DNA from: Emiliania huxleyi CCMP1516
Lineage: Eukaryota
Direction: 5' to 3'
Length of the DNA stretch: 64,000 bases
Assembly (NCBI RefSeq): GCF_000372725.1
Contig: NW_005202428.1
Location: forward strand, 2,890,670 to 2,954,669
Numbering within the stretch: position 1 is the first letter of the stretch; each line of letters opens with the position of its first letter. Position numbers and translations under genes: made by a program. The notes beneath the pieces were generated by a model that did not search any database, was not told where the DNA came from, and was given only the letters and a program-made list of their open reading frames with translations. This document shows positions 8,496 to 62,887 of the stretch, one piece after another.

Positions 8496-9065
8496 AGCAC
8501 CTCCCTCCTCACTGCTCCGTGCGCGCCTGACGCCCAGTCGACACACCTCCCGGTGCGCCCATGGCCTCCGTTGCAGTGGCAGTGCGGGCTGCAGGGGGCC
8601 CGGCGGCCGGCCCTCAACGTGTGCCAGTGATGGCCCTAGGGAGGAGTGCACTGAGGGCGGTACATTATAGATCCTGTGGCATGAGACTGTCCCGCTCGCC
8701 ATGCGCCCGCGGCTGTGGTGTGGCGAGTGTGCAGTGAACGCACGAGAGAGGGGCGGAACGAGCCGTAGACGGCTCTAACCCAAACCTAACCCGAGACTAA
8801 CCCGAGACTAACCCGGCGCTAACCCGGGCTGCTCGGGGGCATACGTTAGGATGGGTTAGTCTCGGGTTAGTGCCGGGTTAGTGCCGGGTTAGTGCCGGGT
8901 TAGCGTCGGGTTATGGTAACCCGTTCTAACCCGTGCTGACCCGTGCTGGGTTAGTGTGGCTTAACCCGGTGGAACCCACGGCTAACCCGCGCTTCCTGAC
9001 AGACTCACAAAAGAAAAATCTGGTCGCGCCAGGACTCCAGCCCACGGCCTCAAAACTGGCGAGGG

Positions 9066-12000
9066 ATGTCGCGGCGGGTGAGTTCAGCCGAGCTGGCGGC
9101 GCACGCCACCAACGAAAGCTGCTGGATCGTCATCCACGGCGACGTCTACGACGTCACCGACTTTCACCACCCAGGCGGCAACGACCGCCTCTTCGAGCGC
9201 GGAGGCCGAGACGCCTCCGCCGCCTTTGACGCGATCGGGCACTCCATGCACGCGACAAAGCACATGCAGGCCCTGCGTGTCGGCCAGCTTGCTCCGTCGC
9301 CGGACGCCGCCGCCGCCTCGACTTCGCACCTCCCGCCTGCGCCCGCGGCGCCACGCCTCACGCACGCGGACCTGCCCGCGGCGGCGAGCGCGTCATTGGA
9401 CCGAGCCGAGGGCGGTGGGATCGCAGCCTCCTCGGGCCGGCCTCCGCCCACCGTCCCGCCCGCCCGCCCCGCCTTGACCTCGCTCCGGGTGGGGGCGGCG
9501 GAGCTGGCCGGAGCAGCGAGCGGCGGCGGCATCCGCGCGGGAGGCGGCGGCGTCGGCAGCGGTGCAAACAGCGTCGACGGCGCCTTTCCAGGCGGCGGCG
9601 GGAGTTTGGAGCCCGACTCGCAGCGGTGGGTCCTCAAGTCGGCCGTCTTCCACCGCGCTCCTCGGCCGCAGGACCGGCTCTGGTCGACTCGGTGCCGCGG
9701 CTTCCTGCCGGCGAGGAACCCGCCCGAGGAGGTGCCGCAGCCGTACAAGCTGCTCACCGAGCTGGTCGAGGGGCTCCCCGCCGCGCTGGCCGAGGGCTCC
9801 TTCCGGCGCCTGGTCGACGCCCGCGCCGCCGACTTCGCGCCACTCGAGGCGGCCATCCGCGCGGAGCGGGACGAGGCGCTGCTCGAGCGCATCCACTCGC
9901 TCTACGGCTACATCGGCAAGGGGTGCGCGCTCGAGCCCCCCCACCCACCCACCCACCCACCCACCACCTCCCCACCCACCACACACACACACAGCCTTCT
10001 TCCTCTCCCGTCACCCCCTCTCTTCTTCGCAGGTACGTCCTCGAGCCCCCCGCGAGCAGCGGGCCCCGCCCCTCCGCCTCGGCCGCACCGCCCTCCCCGC
10101 CGCCGCTCGGCCGCGTGGCGACGGCGCACGCATCGCTCGGAGACGGCCCGCGGGGCGGGCACATACCCCGACCCTTCTCGGAAGCTTCCCCCCGTAGGCG
10201 CCGGCCTCGCTCGAGGCGCTCGCGCCCGCACGGCCCGCACGGCCCGCCACGGCCGGCGCCGCAGACACTGGAGCCGAGCCCGCGCCGCCGCAGCGCACCA
10301 CCGCAGCGGGCGCCACGCCCGCCGCCGCCGACGCTCCCGGAGCGACGTCCCCCGGCGGCGGGAGCAGCGGAGGAGCAGCCGTCGCGCCGTCGCCGCCGCC
10401 GACGGCGCCGACGCTTGCCGCGCCGGTGCCGCTCGAGCCCGAGGCCAAGGTCGTTCCAAAGTTCCTCTCGGACGGCTGGCTGGCGGTGTCTGCGCGCGTG
10501 GGTCGGCAGCCGACCATCGACTACGCCAACTGCGTGCTCTTCAACTTTGCGCTGCTGCACCCGGCGGGCGGCGTCACTCCGCACACCGCTGCGAACAGCG
10601 TCTCCTCACACCTTCTAGCTGCGGACAGGAGGGCGGCATCACGCCGGACAATGTGCGAATCCTCAACCGCTTCACTGGCGCGCGACACGGGGCTCTCTCG
10701 GCCCCACCGCACGGCCACGCCACGCTCCACTGCCCGCGTCCCTGTAGGCTTGCTCGACGAGGAGTGGTTCCTCAAGACCCACGTCATCATCGAGTCCGAG
10801 GCGGCGGGCGTCGTCTCGGCCGTCTACGACGCCGCCGCCGCAGTCCGGCGTTGCGACCTCGACCGCCTGCTCGCCCAGCTCACCTGGCTGGAGCAGGCGT
10901 ATAATATAATAGAATAGAATAGAATATAATATAATATAATATAATATAATCACCTGGCTGGAGCAGGCGCTCTCGCACGTCGCGTCAAACACGCTGCGCC
11001 TCATGTTCGAGCGGCGCGACGAGGACCGCCGCCCACGGCGGCGAGACACTGCCGTCGCGCAGCCCTCACCGCCCGCTGTTGCGCCGCAGGACGGCTTCAT
11101 GTGCGAGCCGGACGCCTTCTTCCACCGCGTGCGGCCGCTCATCTCTTCGTGGACGGCCCTCTTCGAGGGGCAGTACGACGACTCTTCCGCGCTGCACGAC
11201 CTCACCTCCCAACTCGAGGCGCTCGACCGGCCGGAGGCGCGACGCGTGCAGTAAGCCTCCACCAAGCGTCACGACACGGCTCTCTCTCAGGCGGTCGAGC
11301 GGCTCGAGGCGGCGGCGGCGGCGGCCGGGTCCGGCCTGCCCGACCTGGCCCGCCCGCGACCCCTCGCCGGCGTGTCGAGGCTACGCCTACGACACGTCCA
11401 CGGCGCGTCCCGTAGGCGCCGCACCGTGAGCACCTCCGCCGCCGCATCGCCTCGCTGCAGCGGCGCAAGAGGCTGTGCGGCCCGTCGGGCGCCATGTCGG
11501 CCATCCTAGACACTTCCTAGACACTTCCTAGACACTTCCTAGACACTTCCATGTAGGCGCCATGTCGGCCATCCTCCCGCTCTGCGACGGTTTCCTCGGC
11601 ATCTCGATGTCGTCCGAGGCGCTCGGCGCGATGCTCAAGGCCTTCGAGCAGTACATGCCCGCGCCGCACCGCGATTTCCTCGACGACGTGCGCCGCCGCC
11701 CCCTCCGCCCCCTCATCGTCCGGCTGCGGGAGGCGGCGCGCCGTGCGGGCAGCGGCGTCGGCAGCAGCGGCGGCGGCTCGCCGGCGTCGCTGTCTGCGAC
11801 CGCCGACACGGGCGGTCCGCACGTCTCGCCGTCTCCAGGCGGCGGGCGCGGCGGCGGCGGCGGCGAGGAGGCGATGGCGTCGGGCGGTGGTGCGGCGGGA
11901 GTGGGTGCCACGGCGGGCGCGGGCGCCGGCGCGGCGGAGGACGAGTCGTGGCCGGAGTGTGCCATGGCGACGTTCGAGGGCGACGAGGCCTTCCACGAGG

Positions 12001-14119
12001 CGGGCTCGGCCTCTGCCTCGCCGTCTCGCGGAGCATTCGGTCAACCTTCTCGCAGCTTTCCCACAGGCGGCCGTCGAGTCGCTGGTCGACCACTACAATG
12101 CGGTTGTGCGGCGCGTGCTCGACTTTCGGTGGCGCCACCTCTCGTACATCGAGGAGTACGTCATCAAGCCCTCGGGCGGGATGGCCACCGCGCGGGGCAC
12201 GGGCGGCACGCCCGCCTTCGCCTACCTCAACCAGCACATCAACGACACCGAGGCGGCCCTCATTCCGACCCTCACCTCGTCGCCGCTCCTCCGCCCCCCC
12301 GCCGCACACGCCCCGCCGGATTGGAAGCTGCCGGCTGCCGCCTTCGCCGAGGCTGCCCTCACGCTCCACGCCGGCCAGCGCCTCGGAGCGGAGCACGCGG
12401 CGGCCGGCGAGCTGTGGGCGGTGACAGACGAGCGGGGCCTGCTGCCCGCGCGACCCCCGCTCGACCTCGACGGCCTGCCTGCTGCGTGGCGGGCCGCCGT
12501 GCGCCTGCTGCGACGGCTGCCCGGCGCGTGCGTCCCTCCCCCAACCTTCCGCTCGCTCGTCGCCGCCGCTGCGGCGCGCGGCGACTTCCCCCCGCCCGCC
12601 GCGGTCGCCGCGCTGCCCAGCGAAGACTCCGCGGAGCGAGCGCGTTGCGTGACCGCTTACGTGCTCGCGGGCTGGCGCGCCGCCAAGCCGCCTCCCCAGC
12701 GCGAGCCTCCCGGCCTCGCTGCCTCCCCGGAGGCGCATCGTCGTTCGTACGCCGAGGGCGGCGCCGCGGCGAGGCGCGGCTGGTGGTGCCGCGCCGCTCT
12801 CGCGCGGAGCCAAGCCTGCCTCGCGACTGTTCTCCTCACTTCTGGCCCGTCTGCCCGGTAGGTGCCACCGCCACCCGCGCCACGACGACCAGCTCGACGA
12901 CCCTGCCGCACCCGACGACGCGTCGCCGCCCCCGACGGCGGACCGCGACACCGAGGAGACGCCGCCCGCGCCGCTGCTCCTTCTGCACGCGGCCCTCTGC
13001 GGGAGGGTGGACCGGCCGTCTCGTTTTGGGGTTGCGGAGCTGCTTCTCTACAATTGGCGGCTGCTACCGCCGCTCGGCGGGGACGAGCCCGCCGAGGGCG
13101 AGGGCGAGGGCGAGGGCGGGGCCGAGGGCGAAGGAGACCGGCCTTCGCTACGCAGGATGCGGCGCGTCGTGCCGTGCCAGCGGTTCGTGTGCTTTGAAGA
13201 GGAGGACTGGTTTGTGCGGCTGCACGTCACGCTCGCCGGCGAGGCGGTGCGAGGCTTCCTAGACACCTCCTAGACACTCTCCTAGACACTTCCCATCCTC
13301 CGGGGTCCCACGGGCGCCTCCGCGCCTCACAGGGTCGCTTGGTCGAGGCGGCGCGGCACTGTGTGGGCGCCTGCGACACGAACGAGCAAGTGCGCGCGCT
13401 GCAGTCGCTCGAGGGGGCGCTTGAGACCCTCGTCAGGGTGAGGGGGCGCGGGGCCTTCCTCCCCTCCCCCGAGCTCTCCCACTGATTATGGCTGAGCTCC
13501 CCAGGTGCACTATGTCGCCGGCATTGGCCAGGCGCCTGGCGCCGACGCGCCAAAGGTCACGCCGGCGCTGCTGATGGGGCGGATGCACCGCTTCTTGCCG
13601 CCGTCGCCGCCGGAGCTCGGCCTCGCCTCGGAAGCGGAGGCGCGCGCGGTGCGGGTCTACTGTGCGAGCGGCATCGACCAGCCGATGGTGCTGCACTTGC
13701 TCGGCGTGCATCGCGGCGGCCACGCCATCGGCCGCTTTCGCGAGTGGCAGGCCTCTGCCGATCTGCCCACGCCACACCGCGCGTTCCTCGCCGACGTGCG
13801 GTGCTGCACGCCCATGCGCGAGCGCGTCGAGGCGGCTGTCGGCGGTGAGCGGCTCGCGGTGCAGGAGCTGGCGCGGCTCGAGCTCGCGCACAACTCGTGC
13901 ATCGACATGGCGCTCCGCCTCTTCACTCGCCGGTATGAGCTCGTGCGCGCGCTTCTCGGCGTCGACGCGCTCGCCACCAGCTGGCAGCACGAGCGTGGCC
14001 TCATCCAGGAGGCGCGGCTGAGGCTGCTCGTGGAGCGACGCGAGATGGAGGGGCCGCGACGCGGCCTCCCCACACGCGCCCATGCCTACAAGCGCGAGCC
14101 CACCGAGCGAGGCCGGTGA
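9066..14119 (+). CDS. IDO: Cytochrome b5 - indoleamine 2,3-dioxygenase - degenerate second IDO domain fusion, multi-exon
   Basis: b5: CWIVIHGDVYDVTDFHHPGG...GHS. IDO-1: RGFLP, QPTIDYANCVLFNF, FTGLLDEEWF..H..IE, FFHRVRP, GPSGAMS, YMPAPHRDFL, FRWRHLSYIEEYVIKP, GTGGT. IDO-2: RGLLP, LLYNW, EEDWFVRLH, LPTPHRAFL. Confidence 0.85.
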
Positions 14120-14431
14120 GGGCCTCGGCGAGCGTGCTGCGCAAGAGAGACGTGTGGTTTGTGTCTGCCGCTTGCTACGTACGGCTTTACAGAGGTTGCA
14201 CTGTTGAGCAGAGTCTTATACTGAATATGAGCGAACGCACCGATATAACGCAACGACCAACGTCCGACGACGGGCTCGAAAAATAAAGCCGTATATGCCG
14301 AGCCCCCGCGAGACACACTGTACGCGCGGTCTATACTGTATACACGTACGGCTACGGGGGCTACACGGCTCTATGGACTATACCTTTCTGAGTGACATAG
14401 GAAGGCATATGCATCCCTTCAGCTTCACAGG

Positions 14432-17431
14432 TCACAACTCTTCCTTGAGCAGGCTTCCGGCGGGAAAGCTATCACCGGCCGCCTCGAGCGCGTAGCCTGC
14501 AGGCCGCTGGCTCAGCCTGTTTGTCTCGTAGCCCATGAAGAGCACGATGATGTATCGAACCCCCCGCGTGATCGGGTGACCGCCGTGCTCCACCTTGCCC
14601 GGAAAAAGGACGGCGTGGCCGGCGGCGGGCGCGTCGACCGCACGGCCGAGTCCGCGGAACCACGTCCCTCCGCCGTCGTACTCTCCGGGGTCGTTGAGGG
14701 CGATGGTGAAGCTGAGCAGCGACTGGTCCGTGTGCGTGGGCAGGGAGGCCTGCTTGGTCGCGTCGTACCGCACGAGGAAGCAGTCGAGGACGCGCAGAGA
14801 GCTCGCCAGGGGAGCCGCCTCGGGGTAGCACGCCGAGAGGGCAGGGAGCAGCAGCGTGCGCAGCGCCTCGTTGAAGGACGGGAGCAGCTCGTCGAGCGAC
14901 GTCAGCGGAATGTCCGTCGTCGCCACCGAGTGGTGCCTCGCCGTCGTCCAGCCGCCGGACCGCGCCGCCCATGCCTCGGCCGCTGCGATGTAGCGCTCGC
15001 AAGTCGGCTTGGGCAGCAGCGGCCGCTGCGACACAAACACCCTCGGCCGCTCGCCAAAGGTCTCCGCTCCCGCTTGCAAGTCAACTGACTCGGGCCGGCT
15101 GCCATAGGAGCCCTCCGGAAGAGGGATGGCGGTGAACTCGGACGCGAAGGTGCCGCCGCCCGGTGCTCCACCACTCCTCGGTGCTCCGCCACCAAAGAGG
15201 TCGACCGTGATCTGATCGGCGGACCTCGGAGCGAGGGGGAAGGCGGCTGCACGCTTCGCTTCGGCCCGGAGAGCCGCGTGCGACGGGGCGCGCTGGACGC
15301 CCGCAGCGTACACGAGCGACGACTCTGCGAGCTCGCCGGCGAAGAAGAGGGACGTCCCGAGGTCGTTCCAGACATCGCCGCTCGCCGGCGAGAGCCGGAG
15401 GGCCTGGGCGAAGGCGGACGTGGCGGCGTCCTGCGCCTGAAGCCTCGACGCGAAGTCGACCGCGAGAGGGGCGCCGGGGTCGCGCATGCGGGCCACTTGT
15501 CCGTTGAGCGTCTGGCCGCGCTGGTGTAGCATGGGGGCGGACGCGTCCGCGAGCATCGCTCTGGAGGCTGGGAGGGACGGGTGATCGGGCACAGCTGCGG
15601 CAAAAGCCTCGAGGAGTGCAGCCGCCTCGCTGTCCTTGGCGTGGGTGTAGAGGAAGTTGAGGTGGAAGGAGAAGGCGTTCGGAGAGGAAGGGTCCGCGGC
15701 GCTCGCGTGCTGTAGCAGCCGAAGCGCGTCTCGCTCGAGGCCTTTCCGCTCGAGGAGCTCGAGCGCCTCGTTGGAGCACTCGAGCGCAGACATGGAGCCG
15801 CCGCTGAGCACCAGGCGTGTGGGTGCTGAAAGACCATCCGGCGGCTCCTCGCCGGCGGAGTCGGCGCCGGCCCTGCTGCCCGCCGGCTCAGCGGACTCGG
15901 CAAGCGAGCACGCGGCCGAGGAGGGGCGTGGAATGAGCGCCGCCCCCGCGCACAGCATCACGTCGTCTCCGCCCCGCCCGGCGCGGTTGGCATGCCATTC
16001 GACCTCCTCCAGCGTGGTCGTCGCTCGCATCGCCTCCGACGTGCACGTCTGGCAGAGCGCGCCGCCCCGCAGCGTCGCCTCATTGTCCGCGAAGCGAACC
16101 TTGTGGAGGCGCACCGTCGCCCCGCGGCTCGCGATCGCCCCGCCAGAGCCCAGCACCGCCCGGTTGGCCTCGAAGGCGCACTCTGACGCGTCGAGGGTGG
16201 CGCCCGGGAGGAGGAGCAGCGCGCCGCCCCCACTGAGCAGCGAGCGGCCGCCGCGCAGCGTGACGCGCCGCAAGGTGAGCGTGGCGTTCGCCCCGACGAC
16301 AAAGAGGCGAGAGGCGCCGCCCGCGTCGAGCACCGCCCGCCTGCCCTCTGCGCCGCCGTCCGCCTCGACGGTCAAGTGCGCGCCGCCCGGCACCAGCACG
16401 CCGCTTCTGTCGCCTTCGGCGTGCCGGAGCCGAAGCGCGCGCCCCGCGGGCAGCCGCACGACGCAGGCGGGGCCGGAGGACGAGGACGGTTCGGACGCTG
16501 TCGTCGAGGCGCGGGACGCGAGCGACGGGAAGGCGGCGAGGAAGTGGCACGGGCCCTCTGCCACCGCCTTTGCCTGCGCCGCCACCGCCTCCCTGTCCCG
16601 GATGGCGATGTCGTCATCAAACTCTGTGCCGGGGACGACGACCTTACTCCCTTCGAGTCTGCCGCTCTCACACGAGCGACGCACGGCTTCCGGCACCGCG
16701 ATGGACGGCTGCAGGGCCCGAGCCGCGTCTCGCAGCTCGCACACGGACGGTGCGCCCGGCCGTGCCGCCGCCGCCGCCGCCATCGCGGCCCTTTCCGGCA
16801 CGCCCGAGGCCACGAGGCTGACACGCAGGCTGGCGAGCTGGAGAAACGGCTGCGCGTGCCACGGAAGCAGCTCAGTCACATCTTCGTACGCGCGCAGCGC
16901 TGCCTCGAGCTCGCGGCGCTGGACCGCCGTCTGGGCGAGGAGGAGGAGGGCCTGGCTGCTGTGCACGTCGAGGGCCGCGGCGCGTAGCATCGTCGCGGCG
17001 GCATCCTCGAAGCCTCCTGAGGCCGCCTGAGCCTTTCCGAGGTCGAGGAGCACGGTCAACTTTGTGGGATCGAGCTCTGCGCTGGCGGCGAACGAGGCGG
17101 TGGCCTCGTCCCACCGCTCTTGGTCGGCGAGCGCGCGGCCCAGAAAGTAGTGAGAGTCCCACCGCGTCGCGTCTGCGGCGATGGACGCGCGGAAGAGCGC
17201 CATGCCTCCCTCCACGTCCTTCCGCACGTGCATGGCTATGTTGCCGCGGAGCATGAGCGCCTCTCCCGGCAGGCCCTGCTCGGCCTGCTTCAGCAGCGAA
17301 TCTGCGCGGTCGCCATCGCCCCTGCGAGCGGTCGCGCGTGCCTCCGCAATGAGCTCGGCGGCAGTCTGAGCAGCAGCGGCCCGTCGGACGGCGAGGACGG
17401 CGAGGATGGCGGCGAGCCAACGAGATTGCAT
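14432..17431 (-). CDS. Secretory-pathway TPR + parallel beta-helix + TPR + 2OG-Fe(II) oxygenase (prolyl/lysyl hydroxylase-like), C-terminal KEEL
   Basis: Intronless 999 aa from ATG 17431; signal peptide MQSRWLAAILAVLAVRRAAAA; TPRs; GGA/FxxN repeats; FLVRY...HTD...EYDGGGT...H...RY. Confidence 0.9.
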   Translation of the reverse strand: MQSRWLAAILAVLAVRRAAAAQTAAELIAEARATARRGDGDRADSLLKQAEQGLPGEALMLRGNIAMHVRKDVEGGMALFRASIAADATRWDSHYFLGRALADQERWDEATASFAASAELDPTKLTVLLDLGKAQAASGGFEDAAATMLRAAALDVHSSQALLLLAQTAVQRRELEAALRAYEDVTELLPWHAQPFLQLASLRVSLVASGVPERAAMAAAAAARPGAPSVCELRDAARALQPSIAVPEAVRRSCESGRLEGSKVVVPGTEFDDDIAIRDREAVAAQAKAVAEGPCHFLAAFPSLASRASTTASEPSSSSGPACVVRLPAGRALRLRHAEGDRSGVLVPGGAHLTVEADGGAEGRRAVLDAGGASRLFVVGANATLTLRRVTLRGGRSLLSGGGALLLLPGATLDASECAFEANRAVLGSGGAIASRGATVRLHKVRFADNEATLRGGALCQTCTSEAMRATTTLEEVEWHANRAGRGGDDVMLCAGAALIPRPSSAACSLAESAEPAGSRAGADSAGEEPPDGLSAPTRLVLSGGSMSALECSNEALELLERKGLERDALRLLQHASAADPSSPNAFSFHLNFLYTHAKDSEAAALLEAFAAAVPDHPSLPASRAMLADASAPMLHQRGQTLNGQVARMRDPGAPLAVDFASRLQAQDAATSAFAQALRLSPASGDVWNDLGTSLFFAGELAESSLVYAAGVQRAPSHAALRAEAKRAAAFPLAPRSADQITVDLFGGGAPRSGGAPGGGTFASEFTAIPLPEGSYGSRPESVDLQAGAETFGERPRVFVSQRPLLPKPTCERYIAAAEAWAARSGGWTTARHHSVATTDIPLTSLDELLPSFNEALRTLLLPALSACYPEAAPLASSLRVLDCFLVRYDATKQASLPTHTDQSLLSFTIALNDPGEYDGGGTWFRGLGRAVDAPAAGHAVLFPGKVEHGGHPITRGVRYIIVLFMGYETNRLSQRPAGYALEAAGDSFPAGSLLKEEL

Positions 17432-17524
17432 TTTTCGGTCGCGCAAGAATAACGCCTGCGTGAATGTGAGGCTGATGACTGCACTCCAAGTGCTCCAAGT
17501 GCCTACGCTGAGCGGAGCTGGGAA

Positions 17525-17984
17525 TAGGATTATTGGGCTCAACCCGGTTTGCCTCTCGCACCCCGTCTGTTTTCCTTTCCTTTTTTCTCTACAACACCCT
17601 CTCTTTTCCTCTCTATTTTCCGGGAAAACTGCGTGGAAATCGTCAAATTTTTGGCTCTGAGCCGAGTCTGAGGCTGGTTTGGGCCCCAAATCAGCCAAAT
17701 TTTAGGCCAAATCGTCAAAATGCCGGGAATTTCGCGGAGAACCCGTGTATACCTGGAAATTACCCTGCGACCGCCTGGGTATTTTGTCGATTTCCTCAAT
17801 TTTGCCTCAGATTTTGCCCCAGACCAGCTCTCAGACTCAGGGAAACTCGCGAGTTTCCAGAATGGAGCACCAAACACCCTCTGTTTTCCCTGGAAATTTC
17901 CGGAAACGCAAAGTGCTGGGGACCCTCTGGTGTTTTCCTTTTTGTTTTCCGGAAAACTGGGTTGAGCCCAAAATAGGAATCCTA
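17525..17984. mobile_element. AT-rich MITE-like element with imperfect TAGG...CCTA TIRs
   Basis: TTGGGCTCAACCC and GGGTTGAGCCCAA near the two ends; internal TTTCC/GGAAA motifs; no TSD seen. Confidence 0.55.
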
Positions 17985-19190
17985 GGACCGCCGCAAGCGG
18001 CGTGGCGTGGAGCGATTGAGCATCCCTCCGGGGGCCCCTCTGCGCCGGGGAGGCGTTGTTGGAGGCTAGGACGCAAGCGTCCGTCGCCCTTTTCAAACTC
18101 GGGGCCCACTCCGCTACGCTCCGACGAAAGCCCCGAATTTGGTTTTGGAGGGCCTAAAAGTTTAAGGTGTTGCTGCGCAGAAGGGGTCGGACACAGGGCG
18201 CAGCTCATGCTAAGAGCTAGAAGGGGAGATAGAGAGAACAACCACCCCTGTCTCGTTATTGCGCACACCAACACCGTCACACCAAAAAGCTCTGTCCTCC
18301 GATCAAAATCGGCTCCTCACTCAGGCTCTCAGGGGGGTCACTCAAGGCACAAGGGGGTCACAAGTACTCGAGTACCGAGTCCCTGTCTAGCTGCCACGTT
18401 CAAAAAGTCAGGACGCACGGCGGCAGTGATGGTGCTATTCGATCCACGGACGGGCATGATCAAGTGGAAAGTGGAGAGAGGGCGGTATGGGGTAGTAGAG
18501 CAGGCGCTTTGTGGGTGTGGCGGGTATGGGCGGCGGCGTTGGGTTGCCGGCCGAATCGTTAGCGGAGCTCCTCCCTCAAGCTCGATCACGCATGTGACGC
18601 AGCCACATTGACGTGTCGCCCCCTAGGAGCTAGGTCGTCCCCCAGCGGCGGTGCTGCGCGGGAGGCGGCCGCGGGACGCTGGGCTCGATCAGCGGCTTCC
18701 CCTCAAGTTGCGCCGAAAGCACGGATTTGGCGGACGTTCCTGGTTTCAACTTTACGGATGTCTTGGGCCTCTTGGCACCAGCTGAAGGCTTGCACGGGCC
18801 AGATCGCCCCCTCTCGCCACGTATTCGGATTTTGCTATTTGTTCGTGTGGGGGTATTCCGGATTTGTCAATGGTACCACGCGTCTGCGACGCGGGCGCCT
18901 TGCTTGCGGGCAGAGCCCTCGAGCAGAGCCCTTAGCCACCCTTTACATACATCTTGCCGCGGTCAAAATAACTTGACGTTCGTTTCTTTCTTTCTTTCTA
19001 GTTGATGCAGCCCGAACGAGTAGTGGCCTGATATGGATGTAGGAAGGCGAAGAACAGTCCGGACTGGCGCCAAAAGAGAAAAACCCGCATCGCAATCACG
19101 CTCACGGGGGAACCTGGACGAGATCTCTTTACGCTCTCGGGCCGAAGCCGGCGTCGTGGTAGGCGCTGACCTGCTGTTGTGTCGCCATCG

Positions 19191-19919
19191 ATGCCGTTCC
19201 CCGACACCATCCCCGAGCTCCGCTCCTCGTGGAGTGCTGTCGAGGGCCTTGGCCTCGAGGCGCGGCTCCACCGCAGCCACTTTCCTGCCACTCCGCCCTC
19301 GCCGCTGCCCTCGCCGCCGCTCCCTCGCCGCCCTCGCCCTCACCGACGCTTGCCTCCATCCACCCAGGCGGTCGGAGTCTTGTTCTTCAAGCGGATCTTC
19401 GAGATTGCACCCGGAGCGCTCGAGCTATTCTCCTTTCGGGACGTCCCCGCGCCCGAGCTCTACGAGTCGGCGAAGCTCAAGTCGCACGCGCTCAAGGTGA
19501 TGAACACGGTCGGCGTCGCCGTCTCAATGCTCGACGACGTACCCGCTCTGCTGCCGGTGCTCGAGGGCCTCGGGAAGAAGCACGTCGACTACGGCGTCGT
19601 GCCGGCCCACTACGAGGTGGTCGGCCAGGCCCTCCTCGACACGCTCGCTCTCGGGCTCGGCGACGCCTTCACGCCGGAGCTGAAGGCTGCGTGGGCCGAG
19701 ATCTACGGCGTCGTCTCCTCCACGATGATCAAGGGCGCAAACAAGGTGCCCGCGCCGGCCTACACCGAGCACGGCAGCTACGCGACCCACTCCGGCGCCG
19801 ACCTCGGCGCCATCAAGGACTCGCAGGCCAACGCGGAGAGCTGGTATACCTCCCCAGATTGCATGCCCCAGAGCGTGCGCTCGTGCGTCTCGTCGCTCAT
19901 GCCCACCAAAAGCGCCTAG
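19191..19919 (+). CDS. Single-domain 3/3 globin with C-terminal extension; GC-AG intron 19260-19367
   Basis: SW in helix A, FFKRIFEIAPGALELFSF (CD1 Phe), KLKSHALKVM (E7 His), LGKKHVDYGV (F8 His), FTPELKAAW. Confidence 0.92.
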   Translation: MPFPDTIPELRSSWSAVEGLGLEARLHRSHFPATPPSPLPSPPLPRRPRPHRRLPPSTQAVGVLFFKRIFEIAPGALELFSFRDVPAPELYESAKLKSHALKVMNTVGVAVSMLDDVPALLPVLEGLGKKHVDYGVVPAHYEVVGQALLDTLALGLGDAFTPELKAAWAEIYGVVSSTMIKGANKVPAPAYTEHGSYATHSGADLGAIKDSQANAESWYTSPDCMPQSVRSCVSSLMPTKSA

Positions 19920-20907: not shown

Positions 20908-22614
20908 ATGGAGACGGACCTCCCTTTCGCAGAGCGGCTCGCCGCCTTGGCAAAGCGCGCAAACGCTGCAGGCGCCACCGGCTGCGCTGCTGCACTCTTT
21001 GCGGCAGCCTTTGCCGTCGGTGGCCGCGTCGAGGAGCGTGTGGCGACTGCCAACATGCATCTCAAGGCTGGAAACGCGACGCTCGCAAAGACAGAGTACC
21101 AGACTATGCTCGCAGACCCGTCGCTCCCTCCCAAGGTGCGTCAGATGGTGGAACGCAAGCGAGACGAAGCCGCCGCCGCCCTCGCCAAGAGCGGCCTCGA
21201 ACCTGGCACTCTCTCTCAGTCGACCACGCAGCAGCTGCGCACAGAGGCGAGATGGCGAAAGGCTGAGTCCACTGGCCCCGTCGTGGCCGACGAGCTCAAG
21301 GCCTTTGGCGCAAAGGCGAACCGGAAGGGCGCCCATGCCCTCGCTCGTGACGTCTACTCAGCAGCATTTGCCCTCACCGACCGGCTCGACAACCGCATCT
21401 CTTCAGCCAACATGCGGCTCAAGGCGCACCTGGGTTCTGTGCATCCTGCGTTTGCGCACCCCGATCTCACTTACCCGCCTGCGGCCACGTGACAGATGGG
21501 TGACGAAGCCAGCATCCGCATCGCGGCCGGCGAGTATGACCAGGTCGCTGCAACGGCGGCGGCCCCCGGTAAGGCGCTGCCCAAGGCGCAGGCGACCCTG
21601 CTGCGTCGGAAGCGGGCAGAGGCCTCTGCGGCGCTGCTACACCTTGGGTGCCGCGACGACGTGCTGCTGATTGCGTTCGGTCCGATGGCCGACCCGCTCC
21701 TTCCGGCAGCCGCGGTCGCCCTGTCCTCAACCTGCCGCGTCGTTTGGCGGGCAGCACGCCCGACGCTCCGGGCGCTCAAGGCGTGGCACGCTGGTGCCGG
21801 CGCCCTGTGCGGCAAGATTGGCTCTCAGCCGCAAGCCCGCCACCTCCCGATTGAGTGCTCACCCGCTGGCCTCAAAAAGGCGGACGCGCTCTGCTTCAAG
21901 AATGGCGCGGCCCTCACGCCGGCCGATGCTGCGACCCTCGGCCACCTGATCGAGTGCGGCTCCTTTTCCGGGCTGGGGTCACTCGACCTCGACAACACGC
22001 GGCTCGATCGCGCGGGGGTGAGAACGGTTGTCCAGGGAATCGCCGGTGGCACGCTCCCGCGTCTGCGCAGCATCAACTTTGGTAATCACGAGGTCGGCGA
22101 CGCGGTGCTCGTGGCGTTGGCGTCCTCGCTCGGCGCGGACCCGACCAACGTGCTGCCGTGGCTCACGGAGCTTCATCTCTACGGAACGAGCGTCGGCGAC
22201 GAGGGCGTGTGCGAGCTCCTGACGGCCGCGACTGTGGGCGCGCTGCCCCGCCTGGAGCTGCTCTCGCTGGACGGCAACAAGGGGGTCCGTAGTCGCAGCG
22301 CCGTGACCCTCGTGGACGCGTGCGCTCAAGGCGCGCTGCCGCGGCTCCGGGACCTCAAGCTCGCCTGGACCTCCATCGACGACGTCGCCGTCGCGGCGAT
22401 GGCAAAGGCCGGCGCCTCGGGCGGCTTTGCGAGGCTGGAGGGGCTGCACGTCGAGGGCAACGACGGCATCACTTTGGAGGGCGTCGATGCACTCGCCGCC
22501 GCTCTCGAGGCGGGCGCCTTCCCGGCGCTCATGCACCTGTCGCTGCCGGGGAAGCACCAGGGCCGACCCGACATGCTGGCGCTGCGCGAGGCACGCGACG
22601 GGTTCTACTGCTGA
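20908..22614 (+). CDS. Protein with two TPR-like repeats, an F-box-like segment and RI-type leucine-rich repeats; intron 21424-21495
   Basis: Repeated A..AN..G....A...AAFA...R...ANM.LK; AVALSSTCR; LxxLxLxxNxVGD repeats. Confidence 0.75.
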
Positions 22615-23200: not shown

Positions 23201-23769
23201 GGTGCTGGAGAGCTTGTTCAGCAGGATCCGGGGTGGGTCGAGCAGTTCTCACTTCCACAATGGGTGAGCTTCATACCTCAGGCCAGCCTCCCTCCTCACC
23301 CTTCGGCTTATGTGGATTCGAACCACCGCCGGGATGGAAGCTTCCTGCTTCCATCTTGAGAGACAGCGCCGCGCATCACCTGTATCAGAGCGTCGGGGAG
23401 GGTGGGCACTGTGTGCGCTTTTGTTGTGAGACAGAAGCAGGGGGGGGGGGGGGGGGAGCTTCCATGTGCAAGAGCAAGGCCGAGGGCGGGCCCTTTCGGG
23501 CTCGGGCCGCCCTCTCGCCCGCACCTCTGCGGGGCTTGCACGAGACAAGCCAAGGGATGGATGGGAGGACGGCACGATGTTGATATAAATAAATAAATAC
23601 AACGGACATCCCAAGCTAGGGCTGGGTCGAGGACAGATGTTGATACGCAGCCTTTTGGCGCCAAGAGAATTTTTTCTGCTCAGTCATTCAGCGCACCATG
23701 CGAGGCGACCTCGCAAGGTTCACCACAGGCACTCACAGCCCTGCACTAATCAGCACTGCTCGAAATTTG

Positions 23770-26273
23770 ATGCTTGGCCTACTACTGCCGTTCGCATCGG
23801 GCTATAGCGCGGCGACGCCGCGGCTGGCCGCCACAGCTCGCGTCACGCCGCTGCGGTTGTCGAATGCCGAGCCAGCTGTCAGCGGCCTCCAGGCCCTGCA
23901 GAGGAAAGCGCTGCCGTTTGCGCGCCCGCCGCTCGCGCCTCGAAGGAGGCGACCGCCGCCCGTGTGCAGCGCGAGCAAGGTTGGCTCTGTGCCGCTGGCG
24001 CTCGATCCGCATCGCTGGGTGCAGCTCGGCATCCTCTCGATGCTGGCTCTGCTGAGCGACTGGACGTGCTTCGCCACGGTGGCAGTGCCGTCCGAGTGGA
24101 TGACGCTCGAGGGGCACGACGCTGCGGAGCTGATCGACATCTTCCTCGCCTCCAACGTGGTGTCCTGCTTCCTCTTCACCGACATCGCCGCGCGCCTCGG
24201 CCTCAAAAAGGTTGTGACGGGGGCGGCGACGATGATGGCGGGCGGCTGCCTGCTCCGCTCGGGCATCCCATTCGTGGAGCCCGCGATAGAGGTCATGCCC
24301 GGGTACGGCTGGGAGGTTGCGGGCACCATCCTGGTTGGCATGGCGCAGCCCTTTTTTCAGTGCACTCCGCCGCTCCTGTCCGCCACCTGGTTCGGCTCCT
24401 CCGAGCGGGCGCTCGCCACCGCCACGGCGATCAACTTCAACCAGGTCGGGATCGCCACCGCCTTCATCGTCGGAGGCCTCATGGCAAACTCGCCCGAGGG
24501 CATGCACGCCTACTTCGACGTACTCGCCTGCGTCTCGATCGCCGCCGCCGCCGCCACAGCCCTCCTCTTCCGGGACAGGCCAGAGACGCCGCCGTCCGCC
24601 TCGGCCGCCGCCGCCGCCGCCGAGCTCGCCGTCGCGCCGCCGCCCGCTCCGCGCCTCGAGTACCCGCGCAAGGCACTCGCCCTCCTCCGCTCTCCCGGCT
24701 TCGGCGTCGCGACCGCCTCTTTCGTCGCGTCGATCGGCTGCACGAACGTCGTCTCGGCCTTCACCGCGCCCGCCCTCGCGCGGGCTGGGCTGATGGACGG
24801 CACGCGCCAACCCTAACCCTAACCCTAACCCTAACCCTAACCCTAGCCCTAGCCCTCGCGCGGGCTGGGCTGATGGACGGCAGGCGCGAGCCCCGCCAAG
24901 GGAAGGGGAAGGCTGGGCAAGGGGAGGCTGGGCAAGGGGAGGGCTGGGCAAGGGGAGGGCTGGGCAAGGGGAGGGCTGGGCAAGGGGAGGGCTGGGCAAG
25001 GGGAGGGCTTGGCCGCGCCTCTTCTCACCGGCTGCGAGTGCCTCGCGCTGCAGGGATGCAGATCGACCTCGCCGGCGCGGGCTTCCAGCTCGCCATCGTG
25101 CTGGGCGGGATCGGGCTCGGCGGACTGGTCGACCGCAACAAGAACTTCAAGCTCGTCATCCTCTCCTGCCTCCTGTCGTCGGTACTTCCTAGACACTTCC
25201 AAGACACTTCCTAGACACTTCAAGCTCGTCATCCTCTCCTGCCTCCTGTCGTCGGTACTTCCTAGACACTTCCAAGACACTTCCTAGACACTTCAAGCTC
25301 GTCATTCTCTCCTGCCTCCTGTCGTCGGTACTTCCTAGACACTTCCTAGACACTTCCTAGACACTTCAAGCTCGTCATTCTCTCCTGCCTCCTGTCGTCG
25401 GTACTTCCTAGACACTTCCAAGACACTTCCTAGACACTTCAAGCTCGTCATCCTCTCCTGCCTCCTGTCGTCGGAACTTCCTAGACACTTCCTAGACACT
25501 TCCTAAAAAACTTACAGGCTCGTCATCCCTCTTCCTGCCTCCCGGTCGGAACCCCCCGGGCCCTTTGCGCCCCAACCCCCGGCCAATTCTTCTCCCATCT
25601 TCCCTCTTCCCTTCTCNNNNNNNNNNNNNNNNNNNNNNNNNNNNNNNNNNNNNNNNNNNNNNNNNNNNNNNNNNNNNNNNNNNNNNNNNNNNNNNNNNNN
25701 NNNNNNNNNNNNNNNNCCCTCGCCTACCGCCTACCGCCTACCGCCTCGCGCCACCCCCGTGCCACCTCCAGGTGTCCTACCCGTGCGACGAGAATGCCGT
25801 CGAGGCGACGCAGCAGCTCGCCGGTACTTCCTAGACACTTCCTAGACACTTCCTAGAATGCCGTCGAGGCGACGCAGCAGCTCGCCGGCACCCGCCCGCC
25901 CCGCCGCCCCAACCCCCTGCCCACGCCCCACACCCAAGCAGCGACCGCCCGGCAGCGCCCCTGGCTGCCCTGAGCCAGCCGCCCGCGCCCAGGCAACCTC
26001 TTCTCGGCGCTGCTCGTCCCTATCTGCCAGAGCGCTGCTGCATACGACCTGCAGATGCCGGGTCGTGCGATGGACATACGCGGCGATACGCTCGTGCTGC
26101 TGGCGCTGGTGCCGGCCCCGCGACGCGACCGCCCCTCTCTCGCGAGCCGGGAAAGCCTCAACCCCGCCTGTCGCACCGCGCAGGTGGCCGCCACCGCCGT
26201 CGCCTTCTCCTCATTCGACGCGCCCCTCGAGCGGACCCGCGTCGACGACGAAGGCGCCGCCGCGGAGCTGTGA
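23770..26273 (+). CDS. MFS transporter of the FLVCR/SLC49 type with a putative bipartite plastid-targeting N-terminus; spans an assembly gap
   Basis: HRWVQLGILSMLALLSDW, PPLLSATWFGSSERALAT, VSYPCDENAVEA; N-terminus MLGLLLPFASGYSAATPRL... Confidence 0.8.
24809..24851 (+). repeat. Interstitial telomeric (CCCTAA)n tract inside an intron
   Basis: Five CCCTAA units then CCCTAG variants, between 31-bp direct repeats. Confidence 0.9.
24899..25010 (+). repeat. Intronic 16-bp minisatellite (GGGCAAGGGGAGGGCT)n
   Basis: About 6-7 visible copies. Confidence 0.85.
25144..25550 (+). repeat. 73-bp tandem unit made of the exon 3' end plus about three CTAGACACTTC repeats
   Basis: Units start at 25144, 25217, 25290, 25363 and 25436, with a degenerate sixth before the gap. 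Confidence 0.9.
25617..25716. other. Assembly gap (100 N)
   Basis: N run. Confidence 1.
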
Positions 26274-29159: not shown

Positions 29160-29751
29160 TTACGCCGCTTTACCAGCCCCGCAGCACTTCTTGAACTTTT
29201 TGTTGCTGCCGCAACTGCAGGGGTCGTTGGGCTTCACCCGTGCCGACTTCGCCTCAGTCAGCCCTGGCGCCTACGACGGCGGATGCCGCGTCAAGTGGTG
29301 CGGGTTGAGATTGGTTATGGCGCTGTCGCTCCGCGCCTTTTTTACGAGCGGCGTGAAGCCCTTGTCCTTGTGCAGCGCAAAGCGGTGGTCCTCCACCTTG
29401 TTGCTGATGACCTGCTTCCCGAGGCTGTTGTTCACCCGTCCGGAGAGGTGCGTGTCGTAGCAGTTCTCGCACACCTTTATTTCGCAAGGCGTGCCTGGCT
29501 TCGTGGGAGCACAGGGCGGACGGGGCGAGGCGCGCACGTACGTCGTGATTGCTGCAGTCCTTGCACTTGTACCTGTATCCAATGATGGCGACGCCGCAGC
29601 CGTCGCAGGTGATGCCTGCGTGCTCGCCAAAGAAGGCCGCTTTTTGCTCTGTTTCCTTGGCCTGCTGCAGCCTCAAGTCGCTGAGCTTTGCCTCGATCTC
29701 CATGCGCCGCTTCGCCTTGGCCTCGTCCGTGGCGGTCGTCAGGTCCGGCAT
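29160..29751 (-). CDS. Small ZZ-type zinc finger + SEC-C motif protein; introns 29541-29475 and 29336-29271
   Basis: HAGITCDGC...YRYKCKDCSNHD|VCENCY; last exon VKPNDPCSCGSNKKFKKCCG. Confidence 0.85.
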
Positions 29752-30514
29752 GGAGGTAAGCCTGAGAACAAATGTTGCGAGGAGGCGAGTCGGCGGCGGG
29801 TGGTGAGGGAGGCGGTGGCGACGGAGAGGCTGGTCGATCGAAAAGATTTTTTCCTGCGCGCCGGCCCTGGATGTGAGGAGAGAGAGAGAGAGAGAGAGAG
29901 AGTCAAGGCGTCGCTACGCGCGGTCTTCCGCGGGGGGAGCTTCGTCGACGGGTGCGGGATCGCGGCGCAGTCAGTGCCGTGGCGATGCCTCCGGCTGTTT
30001 GCGGCGGGCGGCTTGCTGCTCGCTGCGATGGCGAAAAACTCGTCTCGCCACACGCCAAGGGCTTATGCTCTGGCGAGACGTGAGGCGCATGCGCCCAGGA
30101 GGGGAGGGGGCATGTGTAACGACACTGCTAGAGATGCCTTTCGGGGCCCAGAGATAAAACTTCTGTGATGCCATGCGTGACCTAGTAGTGTCCCCAGCTA
30201 TGGGCGTGTCCACGTTGGAGCCAGGTGTGGTGTGGGCGCGAGAATAGCTCCGCCGTTCATGGAGGCAACCGATGCGAGTCGACTGGTGTGTGTCGTCGTG
30301 GTTTCGTATCAAGAATTCTCTCTCTCTCTGGATGTGAGGCTGATAACTGCACTCCAAGTGCTCCAAGTTCCCGGGCAGTAGCGCGCACTGGGTTCCGGCT
30401 CCTAGCCAGATAGGGGGTCTGTGAGCACTGGCTGGCCCCTGTGCAATAGGTAGGTAGGTCCGGGTTTGACCGCCCCAGAGGGCCCCGCAATAGGTAGGTA
30501 GGTGGTGGTGGTGG

Positions 30515-33733: not shown

Positions 33734-34125
33734 AAAAAGAAAGAAAGAAAACAACAACGCAAACGAGGGATAGATAGATGGGGGAGGAGGACAGGGTCCA
33801 CACCTGCACGAGCAGGATTTTGGAAGGACGCGCGGTGCACGGTGGAATCCCAACTCCACTGGTGGTCTCATCAGTCAGTCTAGCGACCTTCCTCCGGCTT
33901 CTCACCGGCAGTCTCTCACTACGGCCCGCCACAAGGACCCCAGGAATTGCGACTCGCCGCTTTCCTCCCGCTGTGATTCTGTGTGAGCTCTGTGTCTTGA
34001 TTTGCCAACAATACACCTAAAACACATCCTGTCGCGTGGCTACTCAGGCATCAAAGTTCTTTGTTGAGTCTACGGATCGCCCTCCACACCGGAGGGCGGC
34101 GAGCTTCGGTCCTGCACGCACCGAG

Positions 34126-57606: not shown

Positions 57607-58058
57607 TAGGGGCTAAAGCCGTGGGCATCAGAAGGCTTTTCAGACCTCAACCGCGGAGAGGTCAGAGGAGTCCAGTCTGAGCCATAGCAATTGAGCCATA
57701 GAGCCCTTTATCAGCCCATGTCTTCGCACCCGAAGGTCGCGCTGAATGCCCGGAACGGCCGCGTCTCAAGTGCACAGTGGTGTCCGGCCGGCGCGATCAC
57801 CGAGCTGGGTGACGCTCAGGGAAGCCTGATGAGGTACTGGTTTCTTTGCCCAGGCCTGGCCCATGTGCATGCGTGATGCGATGGATCAGGACAGCTGAGC
57901 AAGGTTTGGGGAGAATCCTAAATTAGGATCTTCAGATATTTTAACGGATGACCGAAAATGTGGGCAAAAACGGGGTGATTTGGGTCCACGCTTCGCACCC
58001 CTGGAAAAGGATGCTTTTCGCTGCACATGCTGAAGCCGCCAGGCACAGCATGTGCTGT

Positions 58059-58318
58059 GAACGGAATCGTCAAAATTTGTCTCGTCGAAAGCCAGGGCGG
58101 CATCGCGCCGCCAACCAAGAGAATCATCTTCAACTTCGCCAAAGAGGTCGGCAGCCCGAGCGCCGTCGACCGCACCGACTACGGCACAGCCTCCGGCAAC
58201 GCCCGGGGCTTCGCCCAACACCACTCGCAACAGCTCTCGCGCGCCGCCGTCAGTGGCGATGCGCAAAACATCAACAACGCTGCTCGCAACATGCGTGTCG
58301 CGCACTCATTCATGACCG
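58059..58318 (+). mobile_element. CRE-like family B fragment
   Basis: Near-identical to the reverse complement of 27740-28000. Confidence 0.85.
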
Positions 58319-58701
58319 CTCAACATGTAACGTGCGTTCCGTTCCACGTGCCCGTCCCCAGCAAGGACATTCACAACATGCTAGCCCAGCAGGCCGCTCC
58401 CACCGCCGCCCGCGGCGGAGCCAAGGCGGCAAAGGGTGGCAAGGGCGGCGGCAAGGGCGGTGGCAAGGGTTGTGGCCGTGTGGCGCACCAGACCCACTTT
58501 GCGCCGCCGCCCTCAACGCCCGATACTCGGTTGAGCCGGCGGAGCGACGGCGGCAGAGTTGCGGCCGCTGGCGAGTGCGGGTCCGACCTCACACGGCGTC
58601 GAGGGCGGAGGTTGTGGGGCATGACTTCTCAAAACACGGCTGTGAATAACTCGCACAAAGCGCTTTTACCCACGGTCCCAGCGAGAATACCTACTGCCGC
58701 G

Positions 58702-62555: not shown

Positions 62556-62887
62556 GCTGAGTGTGGTGCGCGGGGACGGAAAAAGAACGCGGCAGACCCG
62601 CTGGTAGCAAGGTTAAGCAACCCAGCGACGGAGATGGTGCGGGGGTACGGGTGTTCCAGGGGGTCACGACACGCACCGACCCTTCACGAACCGAAGGCAC
62701 AGTAATCCGGCAACGTGTTGGGCGCCCCATTCCGTTTAGGGCTAGGTCGGCTCAGGGCCCCGTCCACTTCCCTCCCACTTGGCGCCTGATGATGAGGAGA
62801 TGCCACCCAGGCCAGCCGGGGCAGGGGCGGAGGGCGAGGGCGGAGGGCGGGATGGGCGCCAAGCGGGAGGGAGCGGACGGGGAGGGG

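What the first reader, a model, noticed from the sequence alone, without database searches (positions are those of the whole stretch)
9066..14119. Cytochrome b5-IDO-pseudoIDO fusion: a possible self-reducing heme dioxygenase
Seen: a b5 domain with both heme His (HPGG, GHS) and an IDO domain with the proximal His (FRWRH) and GTGG loop. A second IDO-like domain reads FTRRY at the equivalent position and lacks GTGG. Known: cytochrome b5 can reduce ferric IDO to the active ferrous form. Inference: a built-in electron donor plus a heme-less regulatory or scaffolding copy. The loop GPSGAMS differs from the animal GGSAGQS, so the substrate may differ.
Basis: partly seen in the sequence, partly recalled or inferred. 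Interest (0 to 1): 0.7.

Follow-up and report, generated by a model that had tools for sequence, protein, structure and literature searches.

The report
Cytochrome-b5 IDO with dead twin domain
This spliced algal gene encodes one protein that joins a cytochrome b5, an intact-looking indoleamine dioxygenase (IDO) and a second IDO copy whose heme-binding histidine is replaced by arginine, a design kept across several algal groups that likely opens the tryptophan-to-NAD pathway but has not been tested.

Summary
Fourteen exons give one 1364-residue frame, and a single spliced RNA contig matches the model to the base. The order is b5 (both heme His), IDO domain 1 (heme ligand and tryptophan-binding residues kept), then IDO domain 2. 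The family includes named pelagophytes, chlorarachniophytes and dinoflagellates; 29 of 46 members carry b5, and the two domains' trees agree. "Self-reducing" is overstated because there is no reductase domain. The loop change says little about substrate, since its Met survives in catalytically dead paralogs. Best reading: a tryptophan dioxygenase kept ferrous through its own b5, with a heme-less structural or regulatory twin. It is a candidate for the doubtful first step of NAD synthesis in these algae. Activity, b5 docking and the twin's role are untested. I found no paper on it. The scan earlier noted a different IDO-reductase-b5 family on other DNA, but not this one.

The parts
9066..14119 (+). 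Whole gene, 14 coding exons: 9066-9922, 10033-10123, 10198-10563, 10629-10677, 10748-10896, 10967-11023, 11090-11218, 11291-11347, 11416-11488, 11557-11999, 12067-12785, 12862-13246, 13333-13437, 13505-14119; 1364 aa
   Evidence: RNA contigs; model, no internal stop
9078..9293 (+). Cytochrome b5 domain (aa 5-76); heme His in HPGG (9168-9170) and GHS (9240-9242); no signal or membrane anchor before it
   Evidence: PF00173 72.2 bits, E 3.5e-20; both His in 29 of 29 b5-bearing members; hydropathy
9294..9674 (+). Ala/Gly/Pro-rich linker of 128 aa (46-58 aa in five close relatives)
9675..12264 (+). IDO domain 1 (aa 204-823), intact; carries two low-complexity inserts absent from relatives (about 10033-10440 and 11735-11999) and a two-helix insert before the active-site loop, shared with most close relatives
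10522..10524 (+). Tyr at the human IDO1 Y126 position (the IDO1-type, productive residue; His in human IDO2)
   Evidence: 46 of 46 members; role from PMC13440583
10780..10782 (+). Distal His at the human IDO1 S167 position
   Evidence: 45 of 46 members; His in 39 of 46 single-domain relatives; alignment to human IDO1
11132..11134 (+). Arg at the human IDO1 R231 position (substrate carboxylate; number and role recalled)
   Evidence: 44 of 46 members
11479..11567 (+). GPSGAMS active-site loop, split by intron 9; Met replaces a Gln
   Evidence: Met in 46 of 46 members; Gln in 46 of 46 single-domain relatives
12124..12138 (+). FRWRH: propionate-binding Arg, family-specific Trp and proximal heme His (12136-12138)
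   Evidence: Arg 46/46, Trp 46/46, His 44/46
12196..12207 (+). GTGG substrate loop
   Evidence: Thr 37, Ser 8, Asp 1 of 46 at the Thr column
12409..14041 (+). IDO-like domain 2 (aa 872 to about 1339): full IDO fold, no GTGG, active-site loop and Y126 Tyr lost, distal His kept here (13226-13228)
   Evidence: hhalign probability 100, E 3.7e-63 against domain 1; model of relative P0041 matches human IDO1, E 1.5e-7, target TM 0.73
13931..13933 (+). Arg at the proximal-His position of domain 2 (second R of FTRRY); the Phe at 13922-13924 sits at the propionate-binding Arg position
   Evidence: Arg 44, Lys 1, gap 1 of 46; register test
9041..9065 (+). 5' untranslated stretch; RNA contigs begin at 9041-9056
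   Evidence: contigs cannot fix a start site
14120..14285 (+). 3' untranslated stretch covered by RNA contigs; some run on into the convergent neighbour gene

Best explanation
The gene makes one protein with a cytochrome b5, an IDO domain that keeps its heme and tryptophan-binding residues, and a His-to-Arg IDO copy; it likely works as a tryptophan 2,3-dioxygenase that opens the kynurenine route to NAD, with b5 predicted to relay electrons from an outside reductase to keep the catalytic heme ferrous and the copy likely serving as a heme-less structural or regulatory partner. Shown: gene structure, domain order, residue states, family conservation and joint inheritance of the two IDO domains. 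From established knowledge: IDO needs ferrous heme, the reaction itself is redox neutral, and free b5 can reduce it. Inferred: (1) domain 1 binds heme and turns L-Trp into N-formylkynurenine; (2) the tethered b5 re-reduces it in cis after it oxidises, being charged itself by a separate b5 or P450 reductase; (3) domain 2 binds no heme, its pocket being filled and lined by arginines, and it packs on domain 1 to stabilise or tune it; (4) the product feeds de novo NAD synthesis.
For: Domain 1 keeps Y126 46/46, distal His 45/46, R231 44/46, R343 46/46 and proximal His 44/46, and a GTGG or GSGG loop in 44/46. Its model matches IDO2/IDO1 best (Z 36.6, rmsd 3.1, 363 aligned; Z 35.2), ahead of PrnB (26.5), TDO (13.4) and MarE (11.3). 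Other IDO fusions point to tryptophan: b5-IDO-tryptophanyl-tRNA synthetase in P0098 and P0140 (TIGR00233 above cut-off), and an alpha/beta-hydrolase-IDO in Paulinella P0132, the fold of eukaryotic arylformamidase. b5 is present in 29 of 46 with both His in 29 of 29. P0032, which has lost the proximal His, R231 and GTGG, also lacks b5 with an apparently whole N-terminus (six members of 1054 aa); this is one case only. b5 is a reported IDO reductant and greatly improved low-efficiency mouse IDO2 (PMC4191572 section 11). Haptophytes and Aureococcus use the kynurenine pathway, and IDO-like proteins were their only candidates for step one (PMC4217691). The domain trees agree: 15 of 15 well-supported domain-1 splits recur in the domain-2 tree, patristic r 0.92, domain 2 evolves 1.47 times faster, and it still keeps 23 columns at 90% or more identity.
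Against: No activity data exist. The nearest single-domain relatives mostly carry a distal His and a GETGAQS-type loop. PMC4217691 places the Aureococcus and Emiliania IDOs in branches whose tested members have very low rates and doubts their role; I could not confirm that its sequences belong to this family. Low-efficiency fungal IDOs did not rescue NAD-auxotrophic yeast. Whether b5 is the true reductant of IDO in vivo is still called unclear (PMC13142367). Nine members with apparently whole N-termini have no b5, including a pelagophyte-containing clade of seven, so b5 is dispensable in some lineages. Two paralogs (P0032, P0220) are dead in both domains yet kept, which shows the scaffold can have a non-catalytic use. 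The Gln-to-Met change has no known precedent (Gln in 46 of 46 single-domain relatives). In 15 of 45 domain-2 sequences a His lies two residues after the proximal position; the window's protein has Glu there.
Confidence: 0.55

Rival explanations
1. Domain 1 oxidises a different indole (a modified tryptophan, tryptamine or auxin) or acts as a monooxygenase on tryptophan, so b5 supplies electrons that are consumed in every turnover rather than only rescuing oxidised enzyme.
For: Family-wide Gln-to-Met and Gly-to-Pro changes in the active-site loop (46/46 and 45/46). A fused b5 makes most sense if electrons are needed often. Human IDO has a side monooxygenase activity (PMC12921851 abstract), and MarE monooxygenation is tied to loop geometry and reductant (PMC11904535 passages). 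Low-efficiency IDOs are suspected of other substrates or reactions.
Against: The GTGG loop of the dioxygenases is kept and MarE's SLGGR is absent. The Met is kept in both dead paralogs. The Y126, F163, F226 and R231 positions are unchanged. The fold is nearer IDO than PrnB or MarE.
Confidence: 0.22
2. The protein is mainly a sensor or signalling scaffold. Domain 1 reads tryptophan, oxygen or redox state through its heme and b5, and domain 2 passes the state on to partners; turnover is minor.
For: Two paralogs dead in both domains are kept, in clusters of 6 and 10 sequences. Domain 2 is retained across all subclades. Animal IDO2 is thought to have non-enzymatic effects.
Against: 44 of 46 members keep the catalytic set. 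No signalling domain is fused in any member scanned, and none was seen among the near neighbours in the window.
Confidence: 0.13
3. Domain 2 is not heme-less: it binds heme or another porphyrin through its retained distal His (or the His two residues past the proximal site in one subclade) and serves as a heme store or electron relay between b5 and domain 1.
For: The distal His is kept in 31 of 46 domain-2 sequences. His at +15 in 15 of 45. The fold is intact.
Against: The proximal position is Arg or Lys in 45 of 45, the propionate Arg column is hydrophobic, and GTGG is absent in 46 of 46. The +15 column is polar and variable, as the matching column of domain 1 is. The distal His is lost in 15 of 46.
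Confidence: 0.07
4. The fusion is an artefact of joining neighbouring genes, or domain 2 is a decaying leftover.
For: The public model in NCBI/UniRef for this locus's sequence is a 75-aa b5 alone (P0235). One RNA contig keeps part of intron 5. Assembled contigs are not single molecules.
Against: Two contigs from two studies span the whole gene spliced. The frame is open across all junctions. 45 database proteins hold both domains in one chain. 10 of 12 coding differences between RNA contigs and the window are silent, including 4 of 4 in domain 2.
Confidence: 0.03

Closest known systems
Human IDO1 and IDO2 (Pfam PF01231), reduced in trans by cytochrome b5 with b5 or P450 reductase
   Same: Fold (Z 35-37), proximal His, propionate Arg, substrate Arg, GTGG loop and the IDO1-type Tyr126.
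   Different: Here b5 is on the same chain, the distal residue is His rather than Ser/Thr, the loop reads GPSGAM rather than GGSAGQ, and a second His-to-Arg copy follows.
Low-efficiency microbial IDOs (bacterial IDOs, fungal IDO-gamma/IDOc; PMC4191572, PMC4217691)
   Same: Distal His and the S/T-G-A loop pattern of the single-domain relatives found here. That these relatives are the tested low-efficiency class is an inference.
   Different: They are single-domain, keep the loop Gln (46 of 46) and have no Trp two residues before the proximal His (0 of 46).
IDO-FAD/NAD(P)H reductase-cytochrome b5 fusions (earlier scan notes; P0232 here) and the 668-aa b5+IDO cluster of the ESM Atlas
   Same: An IDO-type heme domain and a b5 on one chain.
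   Different: P0232 has IDO first, then a flavin reductase, then b5, so it could be self-sufficient. The present family has b5 first, no reductase, and a dead IDO copy. The Atlas cluster is mostly actinobacterial; I could not fetch its sequences, so its domain order is unknown.
PrnB, MarE and TDO (heme-dependent aromatic oxygenase superfamily)
   Same: Related helical heme fold (Z 26.5, 11.3 and 13.4).
   Different: Lower structural match, no PrnB Pfam hit at E up to 1, and no SLGGR loop.
Enzyme-pseudoenzyme tandems such as JAK kinase-pseudokinase (recalled analogy)
   Same: An active domain and a catalytically dead paralogous domain inherited together on one chain.
   Different: Unrelated fold; regulation by the dead domain is proven there and only inferred here.

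Membership tests
IDO family (PF01231), domain 1 | Profile score above the curated cut-off | tested here: met
   Exon piece 35.4 bits against a cut-off of 26; 179-235 bits in 7 of 7 full-length relatives
IDO family (PF01231), domain 1 | IDO fold | tested here: met
   Model of relative P0016: Z 36.6, rmsd 3.1, 363 aligned to IDO2; Z 35.2 to IDO1; Foldseek E 4.9e-12
IDO family (PF01231), domain 1 | Proximal His, propionate Arg, substrate Arg and GTGG loop | tested here: met
   All present in the window protein; aligned to human IDO1 through P0016; counts
IDO family (PF01231), domain 1 | Gln of the active-site loop | tested here: not met
   Met in 46 of 46 members, Gln in 46 of 46 single-domain relatives; I treat this as a subfamily mark, not a catalytic requirement
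IDO family (PF01231), domain 1 | O2-dependent conversion of L-Trp to N-formylkynurenine | not testable with these tools
   Needs an assay
IDO enzyme, domain 2 | IDO fold | tested here: met
   hhalign probability 100; Foldseek E 1.5e-7, target TM 0.73; Atlas model TM 0.72
IDO enzyme, domain 2 | Proximal heme His | tested here: not met
   Arg 44, Lys 1, gap 1 of 46; register checked
IDO enzyme, domain 2 | GTGG loop and propionate Arg | tested here: not met
   GTGG/GSGG in 0 of 46; the Arg column is mostly C, L or F
Cytochrome b5 (PF00173) | Profile match and two axial His (HPGG and a His about 24 residues on) | tested here: met
   72.2 bits against a cut-off of 23.7; both His in 29 of 29
Cytochrome b5 (PF00173) | Bis-His heme binding and electron transfer to the fused enzyme | not testable with these tools
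   The b5 part of the model was low-confidence (pLDDT under 50); needs spectra and kinetics
Self-sufficient heme enzymes with a built-in reductase (IDO-reductase-b5 type) | Fused FAD/NAD(P)H reductase domain | tested here: not met
   No such Pfam or NCBIfam hit in window frames or relatives, whereas P0232 shows one
MarE/PrnB-type tryptophan monooxygenases | SLGGR loop in place of GTGG (MarE); PrnB profile match | tested here: not met
   GTGG present; loop definition from PMC11904535; no PF08933 hit at E up to 1

The most novel reading that the evidence does not exclude
Domain 2 is a dedicated allosteric sensor: a heme-free IDO pocket relined with arginines (three or four basic residues at four pocket columns in 43 of 46 members) that binds an anionic downstream metabolite such as quinolinate, nicotinate mononucleotide or NAD(H) and switches the b5-fed catalytic domain. 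That would make this an IDO-pseudoIDO feedback enzyme, with no precedent in my searches, and the gate of de novo NAD synthesis in several bloom-forming algal groups.
Probability: 0.15. Interest if true: 0.85.

Novelty: new variant of a known kind. Interest (0 to 1): 0.6.

Why it matters
A 2014 survey left open which enzyme starts the kynurenine route to NAD in haptophytes and Aureococcus (PMC4217691). This family gives a concrete, expressed candidate and a reason why earlier single-domain comparisons may mislead: it carries its own electron relay and a second domain. A natural b5-IDO fusion kept across distant lineages also bears on the unsettled question of what reduces IDO in cells. A conserved His-to-Arg pseudo-IDO offers a clean system for studying heme-free IDO function. 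The public model matching this locus is only a 75-residue b5, so the protein is easy to miss in annotation-based studies.

Tried and rejected
No own genome was held, so I could not check for other IDO, TDO or kynurenine genes in this organism. My first model (1370 aa) had the intron 7 donor 18 bases too late; RNA contig lengths corrected it. The family counts and trees used the 1370-aa version, which differs only in a variable insert. The complex prediction of b5 against the two IDO domains was not available, so it gave no verdict. The VIA search of the domain-2 model could not be queued; Foldseek was used instead. The two-domain model (pTM 0.59, b5 part under pLDDT 50) gives no heme-heme distance. 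A genome-contig scan found only two single-domain bacterial IDOs with loop Gln, among 10 pattern matches; the pattern was narrow, so this does not exclude prokaryotic members. A viral-contig scan with P0098 found nothing. A full IQ-TREE run timed out and a fast run was used, leaving out five partial or duplicate rows. An N-terminal membrane anchor as a substitute for b5 was considered: 5 of 7 members of the b5-less clade score 2.2 or more, but many b5-bearing members have a similar weaker segment (1.6-2.4), so it is not specific. Paper searches listed nothing on a b5-IDO or two-IDO-domain protein; most subscription papers on IDO evolution are outside the library. Look-ups of earlier scan notes by sequence and by place were empty. 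One cluster look-up could not be made, so several close relatives stay without a taxon. No kynurenine-pathway gene was found among 48 window frames scanned.
Full report
Gene structure. The region is a GC-rich eukaryotic gene. I built the model from open frames and tested it on RNA assemblies: 14 of 17 listed runs, from four studies, hold about two thirds of the stretch's words, and I laid 8 of them. The tables list direct joints for introns 2, 3, 4, 6 and 9-13, and one joint over introns 7-8 with the exon letters between. Contig lengths showed that my first donor for intron 7 was 18 bases late. The corrected model has 14 exons, 4095 coding bases and 1364 residues without an internal stop. X12 record 2 runs from 9044 to 14146 in 4144 letters, exactly the spliced length, and X1 record 1 also spans the gene. 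Both runs are only guessed to be RNA, but their contigs are spliced. Contigs are not single molecules, and X1 record 1 runs on into the neighbour, so one mRNA is strongly supported rather than proven. X10 record 1 keeps 60 bases of intron 5.

Domains. Exon 1 gives cytochrome b5 at E 3.5e-20, and five frames give IDO pieces in order. Relatives score 179-235 bits on PF01231. A model of relative P0016 (mean pLDDT 70.8, b5 part poor) matches IDO2 and IDO1 over domain 1 with Z 36.6 and 35.2, ahead of PrnB, TDO and MarE. A model of the domain-2 fragment P0041 (pLDDT 79.6) matches human IDO1 at E 1.5e-7, target TM 0.73, and the two domain profiles align end to end with probability 100. The window's own spliced protein was not folded; relatives of 50-64% identity per domain stand in for it.

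Family. Three word-based searches and one profile search gave 196 representatives. With the window model that makes 197 rows, of which 46 cover at least 250 profile columns of both domains; the rest are fragments, single-domain IDOs, b5 repeats or other fusions. Named members are the pelagophytes Aureococcus and Chrysophaeum, the chlorarachniophytes Gymnochlora and Amorphochlora, and the dinoflagellates Breviolum and Biecheleria, plus partial Prorocentrum models. The clade holding the window protein has no named member. b5 is present in 29 of 46, with both His in all 29. Of the 17 without, I judge 8 to be cut at the N-terminus, 7 form the pelagophyte-containing clade, 1 is P0051 and 1 is the dead paralog P0032. 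In a joint tree of 115 rows all 34 domain-2 rows form one group (100) and 30 domain-1 rows another (95). In separate trees of 41 proteins, 15 of 15 well-supported domain-1 splits recur in domain 2 and 17 of 20 the other way, with no supported conflict; domain 2 evolves about 1.5 times faster. One old duplication with joint inheritance fits this. The root and any gene transfers were not tested. The NCBI/UniRef record matching this locus is a 75-residue b5 alone.

Domain 1. Using human IDO1 numbering (alignment; Y126 and S167 are named in PMC13440583, the other numbers are recalled), the family keeps Y126 46/46, R231 44/46, R343 46/46 and H346 44/46, and has His at S167 in 45/46. Tyr126 matters: putting Tyr in place of His143 raised human IDO2 efficiency about 1300-fold (PMC13440583, passages and section 13). 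Among 46 single-domain relatives the A264 position is Gly in 37 and the G265 position Ala in 44, and one reads GPSGAQ. What is specific to the family is Met for Gln (46/46 against Gln 46/46) and a Trp two residues before the proximal His (46/46 against 0/46). Both survive in P0032 and P0220, which have lost the heme His, R231 and GTGG, so they more likely serve structure than substrate choice. That is an inference.

Domain 2. Counting from a conserved Asn in one continuous helix, the proximal position is +13. It holds Arg in 44, Lys in 1 and a gap in 1 of 46. The Tyr of FTRRY is +14 and occurs only in the window protein. The hydrophobic pattern supports this register. The propionate Arg column has become C, L or F, GTGG is absent in 46 of 46, and Y126 is lost. 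Against a clean 'no heme' call: the distal His is kept in 31 of 46, and 15 of 45 have His at +15, a column that is polar in both domains; the window protein has Glu there. Domain 2 keeps 23 columns at 90% or more, against 71 in domain 1, and 4 of 4 RNA differences in it are silent.

Mechanism. IDO needs ferrous heme, but the overall reaction needs no electrons, and whether b5 is the cellular reductant is unsettled (PMC13142367, passages). b5 greatly improved low-efficiency mouse IDO2 (PMC4191572, passages and section 11). A tethered b5 fits a rescue role. It is not a source of electrons, and no reductase domain is present, so 'self-reducing' should read 'carries its own relay'. Tryptophan as ligand is supported by the residues above and by related fusions: b5-IDO-tryptophanyl-tRNA synthetase (P0098, P0140) and hydrolase-IDO (P0132, P0227, P0233). 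In the tree P0098 and P0140 join on long branches next to the domain-1 group, a placement the tool flags as unreliable. PMC4217691 (section 9, passages and supplement file 2 passages; file 1 and the Fig. S4 labels could not be seen) reports that haptophytes and Aureococcus use the kynurenine pathway, that IDO-like proteins in low-activity branches were the only candidates for step one, and that the true enzyme may await identification. I give 0.55 to a b5-fed tryptophan dioxygenase with a heme-less partner domain, 0.22 to another indole reaction (PMC12921851 abstract; PMC11904535 passages), 0.13 to a sensor role, 0.07 to heme in domain 2 and 0.03 to artefact.

Novelty. Ten paper searches listed no description of a b5-IDO or tandem IDO protein; the library lacks most subscription papers on IDO evolution. 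b5 and IDO on one chain is not unique: the Atlas has an 80-member, mostly actinobacterial b5+IDO cluster, and earlier scan notes describe IDO-reductase-b5 proteins, of which P0232 is an example here. The conserved His-to-Arg twin is what I found nowhere else. Verdict: real, a new variant of a known kind, interest 0.6.

Noticed in passing
P0098 (913 aa) and P0140 (840 aa), database proteins: Cytochrome b5 + IDO + tryptophanyl-tRNA synthetase on one chain: a tryptophan-destroying and a tryptophan-charging enzyme fused. Source organisms are unnamed; not found in viral contigs.
   Followed up: partly
P0032 (cluster of 6) and P0220 (cluster of 10): Family paralogs dead in both domains: proximal His to Asn or Glu, R231 to Gln, GTGG lost. 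P0032 also lacks b5. The domain-2 tree places them apart, which suggests two separate losses.
   Followed up: partly
P0132 (Paulinella chromatophora), P0227, P0233: Alpha/beta-hydrolase fused in front of an IDO, possibly formamidase plus IDO, the first two kynurenine steps; the formamidase label is my inference.
   Followed up: partly
window introns 9923-13504: Intron starts resemble the start of the next exon: mean 11.2 of 20 matching bases against 7.2 for other exons, with 14-19 of 20 in five introns. Intron 5 is a TATAA/TAGAA microsatellite between two copies of the exon end. This suggests intron gain by local duplication and explains the shifted first gene model.
   Followed up: partly
window 11504-11550 and 13257-13293: An 11-base TCCTAGACACT-type tandem repeat in introns 9 and 12 that draws very high contig depth, so it is a common repeat in this organism.
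   Followed up: no
window 8775-8990: Two oppositely oriented arrays of 11-base telomere-like units just upstream of the gene, forming a possible hairpin or small mobile element.
   Followed up: no
window 14432-17701, minus strand: Convergent neighbour: a 1089-codon open frame with TPR repeats and a weak C-terminal Fe(II)-dependent dioxygenase match.
   Followed up: partly
window 19170-19916, plus strand: A globin domain (PF00042, E 2.9e-23) 5 kb downstream; another heme protein, with no evidence of a link.
   Followed up: no
window 21493-62612: Other Pfam hits: LRR (21493-22611), MFS transporters (23644-24813, 57979-60354), ZZ zinc finger (29257-29913), protein kinase (34021-35299), cold-shock domain (61749-62612). 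Gaps of 100 N at 25617 and 49428.
   Followed up: no
database proteins such as P0067, P0086, P0120, P0155: Proteins made of 4 to 11 tandem cytochrome b5 domains appeared among the hits.
   Followed up: no
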